UHGV virus genome: UHGV-1805288
Direction: 5' to 3' (one strand)
DNA: 27,558 nucleotides
DNA from: a virus
This document shows, piece after piece, positions 1 to 27,558 of this stretch (its first letter is position 1; every line of letters begins with the position of its first letter). Made by a program: the position numbers and the translations under genes. The notes beneath the pieces are model-generated. The model was given only the letters and a program-made list of their open reading frames with translations, was not told where the DNA came from and did no database searches.

Positions 1-218
1 AATTCTAATGCTTCCATTTCATTTAAATTTGTAGCTATTATTTCGTGCGTAAAATTTTCCCATCCATATTTCTAAATGGCATTATAAAATTTAGGTTGTT
101 GAGCGTATCCTTGACCCATTAACCCCCAACGTTCATTAACAGTTCGTCTAGTAATACCCACATATTTTTTATTATTAATTTGATTAGTATGAATATAGAC
201 TATATAATTTGAAAACAT
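1..218 (-). CDS. GIY-YIG endonuclease, free-standing homing-endonuclease-like; C-terminal part runs off the window start
   Basis: ATG at 218..216 with AAAGGAG about 9 nt upstream. Translation [63 protein letters not shown] matches the GIY-YIG core. One in-frame TAG at 72..74. Confidence 0.6.
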
Positions 219-270
219 ATGAATGACTCCTTTTTATTTATTCTCTCATTATATAGTAAAAATTAATTTT

Positions 271-303
271 ATATAGTTGATGACTTTTGGCCATCAACTA
301 TAT
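271..303 (-). terminator. hairpin just downstream of the dnaE stop, possible terminator
   Basis: Inverted repeat atatagttgatg / catcaactatat (12-bp arms, 9-nt loop) immediately 3' of the dnaE TAA at 306..308; moderately U-rich tail on the minus strand. Confidence 0.35.
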
Positions 304-305
304 AA

Positions 306-1780
306 TTATTCATCAATTTCTTCGCCCATAGCTCTACTTGTAATTAATTCTAAATCTCCATTAGGTTTTAAATTCTTAATGCGATATAATTGATGTGAAC
401 TTGATGATGAATATTTTTTGCTCAAGAAATTATCTCCATTACGCACACCCATAACAACAATCATATTGCCACGATTAAACCAAGATTTTTCAACAATTTT
501 CTTAGTTCCATCGGGCTGTCTTTGTGAAATTTGTTTATCAAATAAACTAAAATATTCCTTACGGAATTTCACTTCAACTGGACCACTAGTTGTTAAAATA
601 GTGACTGTACTCTTAGTTTTATTTTTAGCAATACAAGTTCCGCAAATCTTAAAGAGTTTATAAATATGGATAGTATGATTACCTTTAGTAAAGCTTCTAT
701 CAACAATAGGCTCTTCTGGAAGAGAGAAGAAATCTACAAACCCATATTTACCAACATTGACATTAGTTAATTCATGTGCATGATAATAATAACAGAGAAC
801 TTCCATTTCCCAGGCAGATAAATTAGCTTTACCAGCATATTTCTCCCAATCTTCTCTAAAAATAAGAGTATTAAGATTATAGAGAATATTATCTTTATTT
901 TCAGCAATCCAAGAGCGGAAAATATCCATCCATTTTTGATAGACTTTATCCCAAGCTTTTTCAGTTAAGAAATAAGCGCCTTCCGCGACTTGAATATCTT
1001 TTTCTTCATTTAATTCATGTAAGAAATTAAGCGCTCGTTCATCTAAGCAATAAATTCCGCTAATTTGCTTCGATTTACAAATTGCTTTAAGATATCTATT
1101 AAACTCAAATACTCGACGAGCCATAATTTGTTCTTCTGTATTTTCAGGAAGTAATTGATGTTTAATTAATCCATTCATATTTTGAAGAGTAATACGTTTT
1201 TTCTTATCACACGTTTCCCAAATATACCAAACCATTAATTCTTTGCGGTCAAACATTGTATCAAATGCGCCACCCTTAATTAAGGAAATCATGGCTTGTT
1301 TAGTGGGTTGAATTCGCATTAAGAAGTCTTTAGGTGAAATATATGGACGATTACTAATAATTTTATTAACTAATTCATCGCCAACATTTAACATACCTTT
1401 AAGTCCGAATAGAATTTTATTATTTTCAATATCTGGCGCAAATCCAAATTTTGATTTATTAATATCCGGTAAACCAACATCAATTCCTGCCTTTTGGATA
1501 TCACTAATAGCCTTAGCAATTTTCCCATAATCAGTTGCTAATGCACGTCTAATCTTACCACTTCTATCAGGCAAATCTTCAAATGTGACACCATTCGCTA
1601 AATCATCACCCTTTGGTGCATAAATGTCAACAATTTCTTCCTCTTGATTATCTTCAAGAGAACCACTATTAACAATTAAACACGCGGTATCCCAATAAAT
1701 AGGATTAAAATGAATTACTAAATAAATCATTTGAATGGCAACAAAAGAATAAGGGAGTGAGTGATTTAATGAAAATGCAT
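306..1780 (-). CDS. dnaE: DNA polymerase III alpha subunit (DnaE-type), exon 2
   Basis: Track ORF 306..1730 extended upstream in frame to the 3' splice site. Sequence from 1780 reads (Y)AFSLNHSLPYSFVAIQMIYLVIHFNPIYW, the DnaE GYxFNKSHxxAY fingers motif. Stop TAA at 306..308. Exon 1 + exon 2 = 4011 nt = 1337 codons. Confidence 0.8.
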
Positions 1781-2927
1781 CGAAAATTCTTATATTTCTA
1801 TAAGGTCGGACTAGCTTTTACTTATAATTTAAAATTATAAGCACACCGTTTTGAAGTGCGTATCAATAGCACCCCTACTCTCGGTCTCACCCGAGATAGT
1901 CTCTACAAACTTTATCTTAATGGATAAGTTAAATTATTATCTTTATCGACTTTACCAATATTTACACGACGAACAGTTTCATCTGAAGTATTAGTTAATT
2001 TAACTATTTCTTTTTTGCTATAATCAGTATTTAATAAATAATCTTTAATTAATAATCGCTTATATTCTTGTGGCGTTATTTTCCGAATTGGGTATTCACC
2101 TTGATAATATCCAGGCTATAACATACCATAATTAAATTTTTTAACTGTAGACTCTCCTAAATCATATTTTTCTGCCAATTCTTTTAATGTCAATTCAGGT
2201 TTTTCTAAGTCTTCAATTAAAGCATCATATACATCATTAGTAATACGATAATGATATAAAGGATATTGCTCAGAATCATCAAAAAAATATTTACCACGAT
2301 TAATGTCAGAAATAAAAGTTTTAGAAACAGGATATTTTTTTTGAATTTCATTATAAGAAACACCATTTTTGATTAATGTTTTTAAATTGGTAATTTCTTC
2401 ATTAGAAAATATTGAACGTGAAGAATTATTCCCACCTTCTAAAATATTATATCCGTTTTCAGTAATTAAACTATGCTTTTCTTTAATCCAAAATTGTTCA
2501 CGCTCATTGGCCTATTCATAAGTTCCATTAAATGTTTCAAGGATACTAATTTCAAAATTTTCATACCCATATTTACGAATTGCTTTATGAATAATATTAT
2601 TATAATTAACACTTTTTGGATTAAATGAATTACTTTTATGTTCTCTAATTCTTCTATCTATATTATTGGTTTGACCAATATATAATTTTTGATTAATTAA
2701 ATTTAAATACTAATATATAAAAAATGTCATTTTGATTAGCTCCTTTTTAATTTATATAAAAAGAAGAAATTCATTAAGATATTTGTCACGGGATTGGCAT
2801 ATAATAATGATTTTCTTTTCATTATTACTTAGCTTTCCCCGTTAGCGAATTAATAAGAATCGCCCAAAATTGGGCTATTAATTCACCCCGATGATGAATC
2901 GGTTAGGTATGTAAGGGCAAGCACTTT
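1781..2927 (-). mobile_element. group I self-splicing intron in dnaE, carrying a GIY-YIG homing endonuclease ORF
   Basis: Exon ends AGGGU (U at 2928); intron start AAAGUGCUUGCCCUUAC gives P1 AGGGU/GCCCU with a U-G wobble at the splice site. P-like element AAUUCGCUAACGGGGAAAGC (rc of 2828..2851). R-like GUAGAGACUAUC (rc of 1895..1906) pairs with S-like GCUAGUCCGACC (rc of 1804..1815) as P7 GACUA/UAGUC. P9 hairpin CUUAUA-GAAA-UAUAAG. Intron ends on G (1781). Splicing restores one continuous DnaE frame. Confidence 0.75.
1912..2730 (-). CDS. intron-encoded GIY-YIG homing endonuclease (I-TevI-like, with C-terminal DNA-binding region)
   Basis: Own RBS AAAGGAG and ATG at 2730..2728. Translation MTFFIY-TAG-YLNLINQKLYIGQTNNIDRRIREHKS...ENFEISILETFNGTYE-TAG-ANEREQFWI. 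Three in-frame TAG (2710, 2512, 2116); stop TAA 1912..1914. Different frame from both dnaE exons. Confidence 0.85.
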
Positions 2928-25863: not shown

Positions 25864-25907
25864 AAGAAATAAGAGAAGAATGTAGATAAGATTTATAATT
25901 ATTAACT

Positions 25908-25963
25908 AAGAGAAAACAAAATTGGGGTCATAACTACGTTATGACCCAATTTTGTTTTCTCTT
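25908..25963. terminator. long near-perfect hairpin, probable bidirectional terminator
   Basis: About 27-bp stem with one bulged G and a 3-nt loop, centred near 25936. It overlaps the holin-like stop codon (25962..25964); the 3' arm is U-rich when read on either strand. Confidence 0.6.
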
Positions 25964-26339
25964 AGATGGTTGGCTCGTCTTCTTCAGCCTCTGTATTTAC
26001 TTCATATTCAATATCAGTATCAGTAGTCGCTTCATCATCAGTATAATAACCAGAATTATTACGATAATTTTCATAAGCAAGGTCTAATTCTCGCATCACT
26101 GATTCATATTTTACACCATCTTTAGCATTTTCAACAGTTGATTTCTTATAATAATAAACTTGACTTACACCATAAGCAGCCCAAGGAAGGCTAGCGCTAG
26201 CAGTAAGCCAAGGAAGAGAACCAATATAACCACTATAAATACAATAAAATGCCAAAGCAATATAAGCTAGTGTAGAAATCCAAATTAATGCAGATTCTTG
26301 AATTAAAAGAGTTTTTGAAAACTCAAGTTTCTTTTTCAT
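25962..26339 (-). CDS. holin-like small membrane protein (two predicted transmembrane segments, acidic C-terminal tail)
   Basis: Track ORF, 125 aa. Hydrophobic stretches LIWISTLAYIALAFYCIY and SLPWLTASASLPWAAYGV; tail rich in D/E. ATG 26339 lies 2 nt after the endolysin stop, with the SD (AGGAGG) inside the endolysin's last codons. Confidence 0.45.
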   Translation of the reverse strand: MKKKLEFSKTLLIQESALIWISTLAYIALAFYCIYSGYIGSLPWLTASASLPWAAYGVSQVYYYKKSTVENAKDGVKYESVMRELDLAYENYRNNSGYYTDDEATTDTDIEYEVNTEAEEDEPTI

Positions 26340-26341
26340 TC

Positions 26342-27448
26342 TTATTCCTCCTTAAATAATCTATATAATAAGACTATTAATTCTTCACGAGTAATAAAAC
26401 TTTTATATCGCATATTACCCTTAGTATCACCTTGAATAATTCCTTTATTTTCCGCCCATTTGCGAGCATCCACTGACCAAGAGCCAGGGTCTTTAGTAGC
26501 TAATTCTTTAAGGTAAACCGCCATCTAATTATTAAATGTTTGCTATTCTTTTGTTGTTACTGTTGGAGTAGTAGGTTGTGGTGTTGAAGGCACTTCAGTT
26601 ATGGTGTCTTCAATTTTAGTAATATACTATAAGGAAACCCACCCCTTATCAGTCTAACCCCAACCATTATTTTCTGCGGTAATAGTTATTAATGTTCCCT
26701 AGGGATAACTATATACTTTTGTAAATGTAGTGCCAGGGCCAGAGCGCACGTTTAAGGAAGATGCCACAGTTTTAGCTTGATATTTTACTTTAGTCGATGT
26801 TGAAATATTATTTAATAATAATTCTACATCATCACGCACATTATCCATAGTTTTACCATATTTTTTAAACCAATGTAAAACATCACCATGATTACTACCA
26901 TATCCAAGTTTATAACTATCTGCGTGACATAGGATAGTGGGGATATTAGTTGTGCTTACTTTTACTGTTGCTTTTGGATTAATATTATAAATTAAACATA
27001 AATAAGCTGTTAATTCACAGGCTTCTTTATAAACAGCATTAAAATAAGTTTCATCAAGGAGATTATCCTCACATATTTCAAATTGTATCCAGCCTGTATT
27101 ACAGCTACCTTTAGAACCAGAACCGCAACCCCATGGGCGATAATTCCATGGCATAGTCTATATGGTAGTAACAGTGCCATCAGCTAATTTACCTATAAAA
27201 GCATTTAATCCACTCTATTGGGTTGTTGAATTATAATCAGTTTTAGCAGTATTTTTACCTATTTTTTGAATAAGTGTTTTATAATTTTTATCTGTGATGC
27301 TAGGCTAAACATAACGTTTAAGGTTAGGATTATTAGCTCCAGTGCTATGCCATAAAATACCTTTAATATTCATTACTCTTGTGCTCTTATAACATGTGCT
27401 ATTGGTCATTATACATTCAAGAGGCGGATTATTTTTTGAGTATTTCAT
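26342..27448 (-). CDS. endolysin: N-acetylmuramoyl-L-alanine amidase domain + SH3b-like domain + C-terminal SLH domain
   Basis: Track ORFs 26699..27154 and 26342..26524 share a frame with the region up to ATG 27448 (AAAGGAG upstream); 8 in-frame TAG, stop TAA. Amidase-like GILWHSTGANNP...NTGWIQFEICED...CHADSYKLGYGSNHGDV; SH3-like SLNVRSGPGTTFTKVYSYP-TAG-GTLITITAENNGWG; PT-rich linker; SLH-like SWSVDARKWAENKGIIQGDTKGNMRYKSFITREELIVLLYRL. Confidence 0.75.
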
Positions 27449-27558
27449 TATTTTGTCTCCTTTCTTAATATATTTTTATTTAATTTTTTAATTAAATTTG
27501 CCGGTTTTATAATTATTTTCTTGTTGGCATACGTATTGTAAAAATTTTTTGCGTAGGA

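What the first reader, a model, noticed from the sequence alone, without database searches (positions are those of the whole stretch)
1..27558. TAG is read as a sense codon across the window (stop-codon recoding)
At least 14 genes with clear homology (DnaE, DnaB, primase, RecD-like helicase, RecJ, RNase H, endolysin, two homing endonucleases and others) are broken in standard translation only by TAG; I counted roughly 70 in-frame TAG. Flanking segments stay in frame and carry the next conserved motifs, and every gene ends on TAA or TGA. Frameshifts or pseudogenisation would not produce TAG-only interruptions. This is the pattern described for TAG-recoded phages. No suppressor tRNA is visible in this window, so it must be encoded elsewhere or supplied another way.
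Basis: partly seen in the sequence, partly recalled or inferred. Interest (0 to 1): 0.85.

Follow-up and report, generated by a model that had tools for sequence, protein, structure and literature searches.

The report
Phage that reads TAG as glutamine
This stretch of a 188-kb human-gut phage genome uses the stop codon TAG as a glutamine codon, which is a known phage habit, but the only matching suppressor tRNA gene I could find, 43 kb away, is itself split by a small tRNA-shaped insert.

Summary
The window carries 27 minus-strand genes or exons (8,281 codons). They hold 71 in-frame TAG, no in-frame TAA or TGA, and all end on TAA (20) or TGA (7). Of the 71 TAG codons, 68 align to residues in diverged relatives. 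Glutamine fits best (log-likelihood -161 against -211 for Lys; CAA/CAG are the commonest opposite codons).

The window is part of ENA contig ZEEV15-1 scaffold_35 (188,073 bp), an SPbeta-like gut phage. It is distantly related to the published TAG-recoded Phass-1 group. Public gene calls for this contig already use code 15, so the recoding is a new member of a known kind.

TAG's share of Gln-type codons rises from 4% in an early block, to 23% in this replication window, to 52% in tail genes. Ligase, GyrA and GyrB are TAG-free across the family.

The window has no tRNA. The contig's only detected tRNA(CUA) lies about 43 kb away. A 72-nt insert after anticodon base 35 hides it from default tRNA finders. 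Intron-less orthologues (about 92% identical) exist in other phages. Similar minihelix-like inserts interrupt tRNA-Gln, tRNA-Pro and a tRNA(UCA) in relatives. How they are removed is unknown, and about 30% of the genome was not scanned.

The parts
306..1730 (-). DnaE (YorL-type polymerase) C-terminal part, 474 aa, 0 TAG, ends TAA
   Evidence: Pfam HHH_6 on the called gene. Uninterrupted 1286-aa DnaE in near-identical L062. Counts.
1781..2926 (-). 1.15-kb insertion splitting DnaE. It carries a GIY-YIG homing-endonuclease ORF (1912-2730, 272 aa, 3 TAG).
   Evidence: Boundaries from BLAST against L062, which lacks the insertion. GIY-YIG Pfam hit. No Rfam intron hit.
2926..5310 (-). DnaE N-terminal part (PHP, DNA_pol3_alpha, finger), 794 aa, 1 TAG
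5540..6730 (-). RecD-like SF1 helicase, 396 aa, 8 TAG
   Evidence: AAA_30 (residues 7-184) and UvrD_C_2 span the TAG positions. All 8 TAG align to relatives.
6730..8209 (-). Three genes: 76 aa (1 TAG), 105 aa (2 TAG), and a 280-aa Phage_lysozyme2 protein (1 TAG)
8261..10000 (-). RecJ-like exonuclease (DHH + RecJ_OB), 579 aa, 12 TAG
   Evidence: All 12 TAG align to relatives.
10079..11673 (-). 103-aa gene (1 TAG), 59-aa gene (0 TAG) and a Toprim primase of 367 aa (1 TAG). All three end on TGA.
11863..12144 (-). DnaB helicase 3' exon (0 TAG in the exon frame)
   Evidence: Aligns to the DnaB C-termini of 21 relatives. Lies just downstream of the group I intron core.
12144..13255 (-). Group I intron in DnaB. 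Catalytic core at 12144-12441. LAGLIDADG homing-endonuclease ORF at 12396-13226 (276 aa, 5 TAG, ends TGA).
   Evidence: Rfam Intron_gpI 59.9 bits (gathering score 50), E 2.9e-14. LAGLIDADG_3 Pfam hit.
13256..14590 (-). DnaB helicase 5' exon (DnaB N and C domains). Two TAG in the ORF; the last may be intronic.
   Evidence: TAG at ORF position 353 aligns to CAA 18 / CAG 4 in relatives.
14559..17341 (-). 192-aa protein (4 TAG), AAA_24 ATPase of 332 aa (2 TAG), YorF-family protein of 312 aa (2 TAG)
17448..19672 (-). 211-aa protein (6 TAG), 324-aa protein with a C-terminal GIY-YIG domain (9 TAG), 89-aa gene (1 TAG), 66-aa gene (1 TAG)
   Evidence: The 324-aa family is the most TAG-rich in relatives, at 2.8 per 100 codons.
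19731..25168 (-). TAG-free island: ATP-dependent DNA ligase (374 aa), GyrA/ParC-like (794 aa) and GyrB-like (607 aa). 0 TAG in 1,775 codons.
   Evidence: The same genes in relatives carry 2 TAG in about 62,000 aligned codons.
25242..26339 (-). RNase H (169 aa, 1 TAG) and a 125-aa membrane protein (0 TAG)
26342..27448 (-). Endolysin (Amidase_2 + SH3_3), 368 aa, 8 TAG
   Evidence: TAG at positions 57, 87 and 106 align to CAA/CAG/TAG in relatives.

Best explanation
The window is the replication and lysis region of a roughly 188-kb SPbeta-like phage of the human gut that uses genetic code 15. TAG is decoded as glutamine, and TAA and TGA remain the only stops.

Decoding is most likely done by a phage-encoded amber-suppressor tRNA (anticodon CUA). 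It is transcribed from one of the phage's two tRNA clusters, in a host that itself uses the standard code.

Genes needed before the suppressor is available avoid TAG. These are the early block just downstream of tRNA cluster 1, plus ligase and the topoisomerase subunits. Replication genes use TAG moderately. Late tail and lysis genes use it heavily. Translation of late functions therefore depends on the code switch.

In this lineage the only tRNA(CUA) gene found is interrupted after anticodon base 35 by a 72-nt insert that must be removed to give a working tRNA.

Shown: TAG is a sense codon, its identity is Gln, the usage gradient exists, and the interrupted tRNA(CUA) gene is present with intron-less orthologues elsewhere.

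Inferred: that this tRNA is the decoder, that it is charged with Gln, that the insert is excised, and that the gradient reflects timing.
For: Recoding in the window:
- 71 in-frame TAG against 0 TAA/TGA in 8,281 codons, with all 27 gene ends on TAA or TGA.
- ORF cover rises from 0.62 to 0.90 when TAG is read as sense.
- Pfam domains span TAG positions.

Identity of the amino acid:
- 68 of 71 TAG codons align to relatives.
- The Gln profile gives logL -161.1, against -210.5 for Lys and -217.9 for Glu.
- Opposite codons are CAA 502, CAG 241, AAA 185 and TAG 151.
- Q fills 20 of 30 conserved columns.
- The Q fraction at TAG columns is 0.29, against 0.35 at true Q columns and 0.03 background.

Independent gene calls:
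- Public gene calls of this contig use TAG = Q (and others).

Relatives:
- Most are also recoded.
- The closest cultured or published kin are Enterococcus phages EF1/H1/VRE9, SPbeta YorL and Phass-1, at 39-40% DnaE identity.
- Pfam YorF/YonB/YonD/YomU-W families are present.

Usage gradient:
- TAG's share of Gln-type codons is 4% in the early block, 23% in the window and 52% in tail genes.
- Ligase, GyrA and GyrB are TAG-free family-wide.

Suppressor tRNA:
- tRNA(CUA) at L075:1920-2066, found by ARAGORN with intron search.
- Rfam tRNA model scores 39.4 bits with a 75-nt insertion.
- The gene is the same in four independent assemblies apart from one intron SNP and one exon SNP.
- About 92%-identical intron-less orthologues in L134/L138/L143 place the junction exactly at CTCT|AAAACC.
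- Relatives carry an intron-less tRNA(CUA) in the syntenic cluster.
Against: - No expression, proteomic or tRNA-charging data exist for this phage.
- The only tRNA(CUA) gene found is interrupted, and no known excision route fits it. It is too short for a group I intron, gets no Rfam hit, its last base is A rather than G, and no bulge-helix-bulge can be drawn by inspection.
- About 56 kb of the genome (roughly record 1-56k) was not scanned, so an intact second suppressor or an RF2 gene could be there.
- About a third of TAG-aligned columns are variable or favour K/E/N, as expected for surface positions. This leaves the Gln assignment statistical rather than direct.
- The tRNA's origin is ambiguous. 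It is 65% identical to the lineage's tRNA-Gln(UUG) and 59% to tRNA-Trp(CCA). In more distant relatives the suppressors look closer to tRNA-Trp.
Confidence: 0.9

Rival explanations
1. TAG is a sense codon, but the interrupted tRNA(CUA) is a dead gene. The real decoder is an intact suppressor tRNA elsewhere in the unscanned part of the genome, or one supplied by the host or a co-infecting phage.
For: - About 30% of the genome was not scanned.
- Phass-1 carries three tRNA-Sup-CTA copies (PMC10607447).
- A jumbo-phage survey suggests that some recoded phages lacking a suppressor tRNA may borrow one from the host or from other phages (PMC13037316).
- No known splicing mechanism fits the insert.
Against: - The gene is near-identical in four assemblies from different samples. 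Its exons stay cloverleaf-competent, with an encoded CCA end.
- Both tRNA clusters of the lineage (7 + 17 tRNAs) contain no other CUA tRNA.
- In relatives the same kind of insert sits in tRNA-Gln(UUG) and tRNA-Pro(UGG), which argues that the inserts are tolerated and removed.
Confidence: 0.2
2. The genes are pseudogenes, or the TAGs are assembly or sequencing artefacts or frameshift debris in a decaying or chimeric contig.
For: Under table 11 most genes are fragmented.
Against: - Only TAG interrupts the genes (71 against 0 TAA/TGA), although TAA and TGA are far commoner off-frame.
- Reading frames are kept across every TAG.
- The same proteins recur exactly in tens to over a hundred sample blocks.
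- Complete assemblies of 188-190 kb come from three cohorts.
- TAG positions exchange with CAA/CAG in relatives.
Confidence: 0.01
3. TAG encodes an amino acid other than glutamine (for example Trp, Lys, Tyr or pyrrolysine), or is decoded ambiguously.
For: - ARAGORN labels the tRNA 'Pyl' only because of its CUA anticodon.
- Suppressors of distant relatives resemble tRNA-Trp(CCA) with a C35-to-U change.
- From memory, not tested here: Trp-derived CUA suppressors can be mischarged.
- Many TAG columns align to K/E/N.
Against: - W never appears opposite TAG in the first table.
- The Gln profile beats Lys and Glu by about 49-57 log units, and conserved columns are Q in 20 of 30.
- TAG and CAG differ by one transition, and TAG replaces CAG in usage (35 CAG against 71 TAG).
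- Proteomics showed TAG = Q in other gut phages (PMC9523058).
Confidence: 0.05

Closest known systems
Genetic code 15 (TAG to Gln) gut bacteriophages: Lak, crAss-like and the 'gemstone' clades (Borges et al. preprint 10.1101/2021.08.26.457843; proteomic proof in PMC9523058)
   Same: - In-frame TAG in conserved genes, with TAA/TGA kept as stops.
- Gln at aligned positions.
- A phage-encoded tRNA(CUA).
- Heavy use of TAG in structural and lysis genes, avoidance in some early genes, and variable use in replication genes.
- Close relatives differ in how far they are recoded.
   Different: - This is a different phage lineage (SPbeta-like siphovirus, about 188 kb, low GC).
- Recoding extends well into the replication genes and into the homing-endonuclease ORFs of introns.
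- No RF2 was seen in the roughly 70% of the genome inspected.
- The only tRNA(CUA) found is interrupted by a 72-nt insert.
Phass-1 / proposed Phassvirus group and its EF1/SPbeta-like relatives (Babkin et al. 2023, PMC10607447)
   Same: - Human-gut siphovirus-type genomes with a tape-measure protein of over 3,100 aa.
- Large tRNA sets.
- TAG to Gln in many core genes.
- tRNA-Sup-CTA genes and no dedicated aminoacyl-tRNA synthetase.
- DnaE of the window hits Phass-1 at 38.6% and Enterococcus EF1/H1/VRE9 and SPbeta YorL at 39-40%.
   Different: - Only distant kinship: no nucleotide-level match in GenBank phages.
- The genome is about 50 kb larger.
- It encodes GyrA/GyrB.
- Phass-1 has three apparently intact suppressor genes, whereas here one interrupted gene was found.
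'Enigmatic' tRNA introns of Lak megaphages and jumbo phages (PMC6784885; PMC13037316)
   Same: - Inserts in the anticodon loops of phage tRNAs, in phages that use code 15.
- The insert sequence is highly conserved between samples.
- Some inserts look tRNA-like.
   Different: - In the text I read, those reports name Phe, Gly, Thr and Tyr tRNAs, not the suppressor.
- Here the insert sits in the amber suppressor itself. In relatives it sits in tRNA-Gln(UUG), tRNA-Pro(UGG) and a tRNA(UCA).
- The inserts share a minihelix-like module.
Group I introns in bacterial tRNA anticodon loops, including position 35/36 (PMC13011429)
   Same: - Insertion between anticodon bases 35 and 36.
- The 5' exon ends in U for the suppressor and tRNA-Gln cases.
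- Standard tRNA finders miss the genes.
   Different: - The inserts are 72-123 nt, far below a group I core.
- There is no Rfam Intron_gpI hit.
- The suppressor insert ends in A, not G.

Membership tests
Code-15 (TAG to Gln) recoded phage | Conserved genes are interrupted in the standard code only by TAG, with colinear flanks. | tested here: met
   71 TAG against 0 TAA/TGA in frame. Pfam domains and relatives' alignments span the TAG positions.
Code-15 (TAG to Gln) recoded phage | TAG positions correspond to glutamine in homologues. | tested here: met
   Gln profile is best by about 49 log units. CAA/CAG are the commonest opposite codons. Q fills 20 of 30 conserved columns.
Code-15 (TAG to Gln) recoded phage | TAA and TGA are retained as terminators. 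| tested here: met
   Terminal codons are 20 TAA and 7 TGA. No gene needs TAG as its stop.
Code-15 (TAG to Gln) recoded phage | A phage-encoded suppressor tRNA with anticodon CUA. | tested here: met
   Not in the window. It lies on the same contig at L075:1920-2066 but carries a 72-nt insert. Function of the interrupted gene is not shown.
Code-15 (TAG to Gln) recoded phage | Recoded codon is enriched in late or lysis genes and avoided in early genes. | tested here: met
   TAG's share of Gln-type codons is 4% (early block), 23% (window) and 52% (tail genes). Timing classes are inferred from gene content and a consensus sigma-70 promoter, not measured.
Code-15 (TAG to Gln) recoded phage | Release factor 2 gene (present in some members, not defining). 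| tested here: inconclusive
   No RF domain appears among the Pfam labels of called genes in the fetched loci. About 30% of the genome is unseen.
Code-15 (TAG to Gln) recoded phage | Peptide-level evidence of Gln at TAG. | not testable with these tools
   Needs metaproteomics of samples carrying this phage.
SPbeta-like / EF1-like / Phass group of siphoviruses | Yor-type replication module (YorL DnaE, YorF, RecJ-like, DnaB-like) and Yom/Yon structural proteins with a very long tape-measure protein. | tested here: met
   tblastn of DnaE hits SPbeta yorL, EF1 and Phass-1 at 39-40%. Pfam YorF, YonB, YonD_N, YomU/V/W. Tape-measure protein of 3,123 aa.
Group I intron (for the 72-nt insert in the suppressor tRNA) | A catalytic core recognisable by covariance model, 5' exon ending in U and intron ending in G. 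| tested here: not met
   No Intron_gpI hit at E up to 10 on the insert. It is 72 nt long and its last base is A. The features are as listed in PMC13011429.
Archaeal/eukaryal bulge-helix-bulge tRNA intron | Splice sites lie in two 3-nt bulges separated by a 4-bp helix, canonically at position 37/38. | tested here: not met
   The insert is at 35/36. The predicted fold puts the 5' junction at the base of an 8-bp helix, with a 3-nt/6-nt internal loop. By inspection no 4-bp central helix can be drawn.
Group I intron (DnaB insertion in the window) | Match to the Rfam Intron_gpI model above the gathering score, interrupting a conserved gene. | tested here: met
   59.9 bits against a gathering score of 50, at window 12144-12441 minus strand. 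DnaB exons flank it.

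The most novel reading that the evidence does not exclude
In this phage lineage the switch to reading TAG is gated by RNA processing. The sole amber-suppressor tRNA is made as a precursor split inside its anticodon by a 72-nt element. That element mimics the acceptor/T-arm minihelix of a tRNA, including a 3' GCCA tail in three of four strains.

Host tRNA-end-processing enzymes (for example RNase P at the 5' junction) would cut it out. A phage early enzyme would then reseal the anticodon loop. 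The candidate is the TAG-free, DraRnl-like putative RNA ligase encoded between the tRNA cluster and this window.

Late, TAG-rich genes would become translatable only after that step. The same class of insert in tRNA-Gln(UUG), tRNA-Pro(UGG) and a tRNA(UCA) of relatives would then be a new, protein-dependent type of bacterial/phage tRNA intron.
Probability: 0.15. Interest if true: 0.85.

Novelty: new member of a known kind. Interest (0 to 1): 0.45.

Why it matters
Annotation: read with the standard code, three quarters of the genes here look broken. Any annotation of this abundant gut phage (its proteins recur in up to about 150 sample blocks) must use code 15. It extends TAG-to-Gln recoding to a 188-kb SPbeta-like lineage in which even replication enzymes and intron-borne homing endonucleases depend on the suppressor.

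Mechanism: the field's open question is what triggers the code switch during infection. Here the only candidate decoder found is a tRNA gene that cannot work until a small insert is removed from its anticodon. That gives a concrete, testable control point. It may also help explain why surveys fail to find suppressor tRNAs in many recoded phages, because default tRNA finders miss such genes.

Tried and rejected
- GenBank phages, nucleotide search: megablast found nothing close. tblastn with GyrA found only hits of 34% identity or less.
- Walking the source contig with exact-protein look-ups: all 12 were used. They covered record 102-183 kb of the contig itself and about 56-102 kb via strains 91-97% identical. 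The walk through the tail module cost five look-ups and found no tRNA.
- tRNA cluster 1 (seven tRNAs) has no CUA tRNA. A weak tRNA-like hit at L047:9502-9575 has anticodon UUU. An anticodon-loop motif scan of 72 kb gave only hits inside genes.
- A 76-N scaffold gap in cluster 1 was suspected of hiding a tRNA. It lies inside a small protein gene, spanning about 139 nt in L049.
- IMG/VR pattern searches for the exon-intron junction, the 3' exon and an interrupted-suppressor pattern gave only chance hits or unrelated tRNA-Met.
- A 26-mer from GyrA searched against GTDB genomes, to get a host, found nothing.
- The insert as a known RNA: Rfam gives nothing for it. Its cloverleaf-like minimum-free-energy fold is no more stable than shuffles (z -1.1). 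I could not test the theta/HDV-like ribozyme motif formally; the helix order does not look HDV-like by eye.
- RNA ligase link: the 470-aa protein only weakly matches RNA_ligase (25.7 bits, cut-off 27) and TIGR02306 (29 bits, cut-off 151). A homologue also exists in L059, whose suppressor has no insert, so the link to splicing is unproven.
- DUF2828/DUF7788 protein against PDB sequences: nothing.
- I first mis-oriented several foreign contigs when mapping their ends. This was corrected.

Full report
**1. The observation**

The window is AT-rich (31.9% GC), and nearly all its genes are on the minus strand. In table 11, ORFs of at least 100 aa cover 62% of it. With TAG read as sense they cover 90%. 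Making TGA sense instead gives only 66%.

I used the public collection's gene calls mapped to the window, plus the two DnaB exons. That gives 27 genes or exons with 8,281 codons. They contain 71 in-frame TAG and no in-frame TAA or TGA. The other two frames of the same genes hold 257/657 TAA, 102/583 TGA and 159/139 TAG. All 27 end on TAA (20) or TGA (7), and 20 of them contain at least one TAG. Random decay could not give 71 of 71 interruptions by the rarest stop triplet.

Pfam domains run straight across TAG positions in several proteins:
- the RecD-like helicase
- the RecJ-like nuclease
- the endolysin
- DnaB and the primase
- the AAA_24 ATPase
- both homing endonucleases

ARAGORN finds no tRNA in the window, with or without intron search.

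**2. Which amino acid**

I fetched relatives from IMG/VR with GyrA (39 loci at 39-72% identity, mostly about 57-62%) and with RecJ (38 loci, including a 77-78% clade with 159-197 kb genomes). Most are themselves TAG-recoded and a few are not.

Codon-level alignment places 68 of the 71 window TAG codons opposite residues in relatives:
- The commonest opposite codons are CAA (502 cells) and CAG (241), then AAA (185) and TAG itself (151).
- I compared the residues opposite TAG with the substitution profile of each of the 20 amino acids, estimated from the same alignments. Gln wins with logL -161.1, against -210.5 for Lys and -217.9 for Glu.
- Among columns with at least five relatives and at least 60% agreement, Q is the consensus in 20 of 30.

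In the first, smaller set the Q fraction opposite TAG (0.29) was close to that opposite genuine CAA/CAG codons (0.35), and ten times the background of 0.03. Trp never appeared opposite TAG.

In codon usage, TAG (71) has largely displaced CAG (35) beside CAA (201).

**3. Where the window comes from**

An exact-protein look-up shows the window is 100% identical to ENA contig ERZ28660352 ZEEV15-1_SAMEA3664782_METAG-scaffold_35 (188,073 bp). Record coordinate equals window coordinate plus 110,316.

Near-identical genomes of 188,009, 187,905 and 190,236 bp, cut at different points, occur in other cohorts. Individual proteins recur in 30 to about 150 sample blocks.

The collection's own gene calls read through TAG. 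Look-ups only succeed when TAG is written as Q (one search failed; and others succeeded). So the recoding is already handled by current gene callers.

Pfam labels (YorF, YonB, YonD_N, YomU/V/W) and a 3,123-aa tape-measure protein mark the phage as SPbeta-like. So do DnaE hits to Enterococcus phages H1/VRE9/EF1, SPbeta YorL and Phass-1 at 39-40% identity. Babkin et al. (PMC10607447) described TAG-to-Gln recoding with tRNA-Sup-CTA genes in Phass-1 and some members of this broad group. The present lineage is a distant, larger relative that is absent from GenBank phages at the nucleotide level.

**4. Pattern of use**

TAG's share of Gln-type codons varies by module:

| Region | TAG | CAA + CAG | TAG share |
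|---|---|---|---|
| 19-gene block just downstream of tRNA cluster 1 (DUF2828 protein, putative RNA ligase, acetyltransferase and others) | 4 | 97 | 4% |
| The window | 71 | 236 | 23% |
| Six tail genes | 170 | 158 | 52% |

The tape-measure gene alone has 95 TAG.

Inside the window, ligase, GyrA and GyrB form a 1,775-codon TAG-free island. In relatives the same three genes carry 2 TAG in about 62,000 aligned codons. By contrast, the 324-aa GIY-YIG-domain protein carries 2.8 per 100 codons, the small membrane protein 1.0 and the endolysin 0.6.

This matches the picture of Borges et al. (10.1101/2021.08.26.457843): late and lysis genes are recoded, some early functions are protected, and replication genes vary. 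Compared with its relatives, this lineage has pushed TAG much further into replication genes (RecJ 12, RecD-like 8). The 'early' and 'late' labels rest on gene content, not on expression data. One supporting detail is a perfect TTGACA-17-TATAAT promoter with an extended -10 in tRNA cluster 2. A similar sequence can be read upstream of the DUF2828 gene.

**5. The decoder**

Walking the contig with exact-protein look-ups found two tRNA regions.

- Cluster 1 (record about 155-160 kb) has Thr-UGU, Ser-UGA, Leu-UAA, Gly-UCC, Lys-UUU, Ile-UAU and Cys-GCA, and no CUA tRNA.
- Relatives carry an intact tRNA(CUA) in the homologous cluster, next to a Y-RNA-like element (L057, L059).
- Cluster 2 (record about 181-183 kb and beyond) at first showed only Pro and Val.

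Reading the sequence revealed tRNA halves around an insert. ARAGORN with intron search then called a tRNA(CUA) at L075:1920-2066, with a 72-nt insert between anticodon bases 35 and 36. With permissive filters, the Rfam tRNA model also scores it at 39.4 bits across a 75-nt insertion. In window-equivalent coordinates it lies at about 70,874-71,020. That is 43 kb to the right of the window, on the same strand as the genes.

The joined exons fold as a clean cloverleaf with these features:
- a U1:U72 mismatch
- G73
- an encoded CCA end
- the anticodon arm GUGGU-CUCUAAA-ACCAC

The gene is the same in four assemblies from different samples, apart from one exon SNP and one intron SNP (...GCUA in the source contig...GCCA in the other three). 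In the 187,905-bp strain, cluster 2 has 17 tRNAs and this is its only CUA tRNA.

A pattern search of IMG/VR found 24 loci with intact suppressors sharing the arm GGTCTCTAAAACC. Three of them (L134, L138, L143) are about 92% identical to the joined exons, which fixes the insertion point at CTCT|AAAACC.

About 56 kb of the genome was not scanned, so I cannot exclude a second, intact copy or an RF2 gene.

**6. What the insert is**

It matches neither known class of tRNA intron:
- It is not a recognisable group I intron. It has no Rfam hit, is 72 nt long and ends in A (criteria from PMC13011429).
- It does not form a bulge-helix-bulge (by inspection).

Folded alone, its minimum-free-energy structure is a cloverleaf outline: a 7-bp closing helix, three hairpins and a 4-nt GCCA tail. 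That fold is no more stable than shuffled sequence (z -1.1).

The 77-78% clade shows the same kind of insert, at the same place in the anticodon, in other tRNAs:
- tRNA-Gln(UUG): 122-123 nt
- tRNA-Pro(UGG): 87-88 nt, also present in one strain of the window's own lineage
- a tRNA(UCA): 95 nt

All share a module in which the 3' strand of a 7-bp closing helix directly follows a hairpin with a 5-bp stem and 7-nt loop. This is the arrangement of a tRNA acceptor/T-arm minihelix. On a hand-registered alignment of eight distinct inserts, 99% of 96 cells pair and 10 of 12 pairs change on both sides. With the partner strand slid by 1-3 columns, pairing is 53% or less. Because I chose the register, the count leans towards the structure.

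Lak megaphages, which also use code 15, were reported to have 'enigmatic', highly conserved tRNA introns, some of them tRNA-like (PMC6784885). A jumbo-phage survey says the same (PMC13037316). In the text I read, neither places one in the suppressor.

A 470-aa early, TAG-free protein weakly resembles DraRnl-type RNA ligases. That ligase family was noted as 140-fold enriched in phages with tRNA-linked theta ribozymes (PMC10879173). A role in resealing the anticodon loop is attractive but unproven. A homologue also occurs in a relative whose suppressor is intact.

**7. Verdict**

The finding is real and correctly interpreted. As a phenomenon it is known, and it is already handled by public gene calls, so the recoding itself is a new member of a known kind.

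What lifts it above routine is the state of the only decoder found. This phage has thousands of in-frame TAG codons, yet its only detected tRNA(CUA) gene needs an unexplained RNA-processing step to become functional.

Noticed in passing
window 12144-13255 (minus strand): DnaB is split by a group I intron (Rfam 59.9 bits) that carries a LAGLIDADG homing-endonuclease ORF. The first gathering-threshold scan of the whole window missed it. It appeared only when the short stretch was searched on its own.
   Followed up: partly
window 1781-2926 (minus strand): DnaE is split by a 1.15-kb insertion carrying a GIY-YIG endonuclease ORF. A 97%-identical strain (L062) has an uninterrupted 1286-aa DnaE, and another strain (L050) has DnaE in three pieces. 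No Rfam intron model matches, so its nature (divergent intron or split gene) is open.
   Followed up: partly
window 1912-2730, 12396-13226 and 1-218: The homing-endonuclease ORFs themselves contain in-frame TAG (3, 5 and 5). These mobile genes can therefore only be expressed where TAG is suppressed, which should confine their spread to recoded phages.
   Followed up: no
window 19731-25168: Ligase, GyrA and GyrB form a TAG-free island (0 in 1,775 codons, against about 19 expected at the rate of the other genes). The same genes are TAG-free in relatives.
   Followed up: yes
window about 6660-7500: Four independent assemblies of this phage (L041, L042, L063 and L066 contigs) end within this 0.8-kb stretch between the RecD-like and RecJ genes. 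It could be a genome terminus or a hypervariable spot.
   Followed up: no
L047:9305-9393; L059:about 7690-7800; L075:about 1060-1180: Y-RNA-like (YrlA-like) elements with a permuted tRNA-like module (29 bits, E 2.6e-4; below the Rfam cut-off). They sit beside the tRNA clusters, just upstream of a DUF2828/DUF7788 protein gene. In L059 the element directly precedes the intact suppressor tRNA.
   Followed up: partly
L149-L166 (for example L149:7881-8079, L150:5465-5627, L161:14082-14253) and L085 reverse complement 5193-5356: Relatives carry 87-123-nt inserts at the same anticodon position in tRNA-Gln(UUG), tRNA-Pro(UGG) and a tRNA(UCA). ARAGORN mislabels the Gln case as Glu or Gln(CUG). Where the relatives' tRNA-Gln is interrupted their suppressor is intact, and in the window's lineage it is the reverse.
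   Followed up: partly
L075:1606-1700: Two direct copies of a roughly 45-nt sequence (GTGAAATTCAAACATATTACTxCGAATAATATCCCGTTATAGTCGG) lie between a terminator-like hairpin and the suppressor tRNA gene. No consensus sigma-70 promoter lies directly upstream of that tRNA.
   Followed up: no
L044/L047 (record about 141-148 kb): The early, TAG-poor block encodes a putative RNA ligase. Just downstream of it lie an AAA_33 kinase and a Metallophos_2 phosphoesterase (one TAG each). Together this set is reminiscent of phage RNA repair enzymes.
   Followed up: partly
L075:2950-5795 and L048:1494-1736: Several tail-fibre-region proteins carry the Mtd_N domain (the major tropism determinant of Bordetella phage). 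I did not check whether a diversity-generating retroelement is present.
   Followed up: no
L047:4846-4921 (record 160033-160108): A 76-N scaffold gap lies inside tRNA cluster 1 of the source contig. Several other assemblies also break between record 155 and 160 kb, so this cluster is strain-variable.
   Followed up: yes
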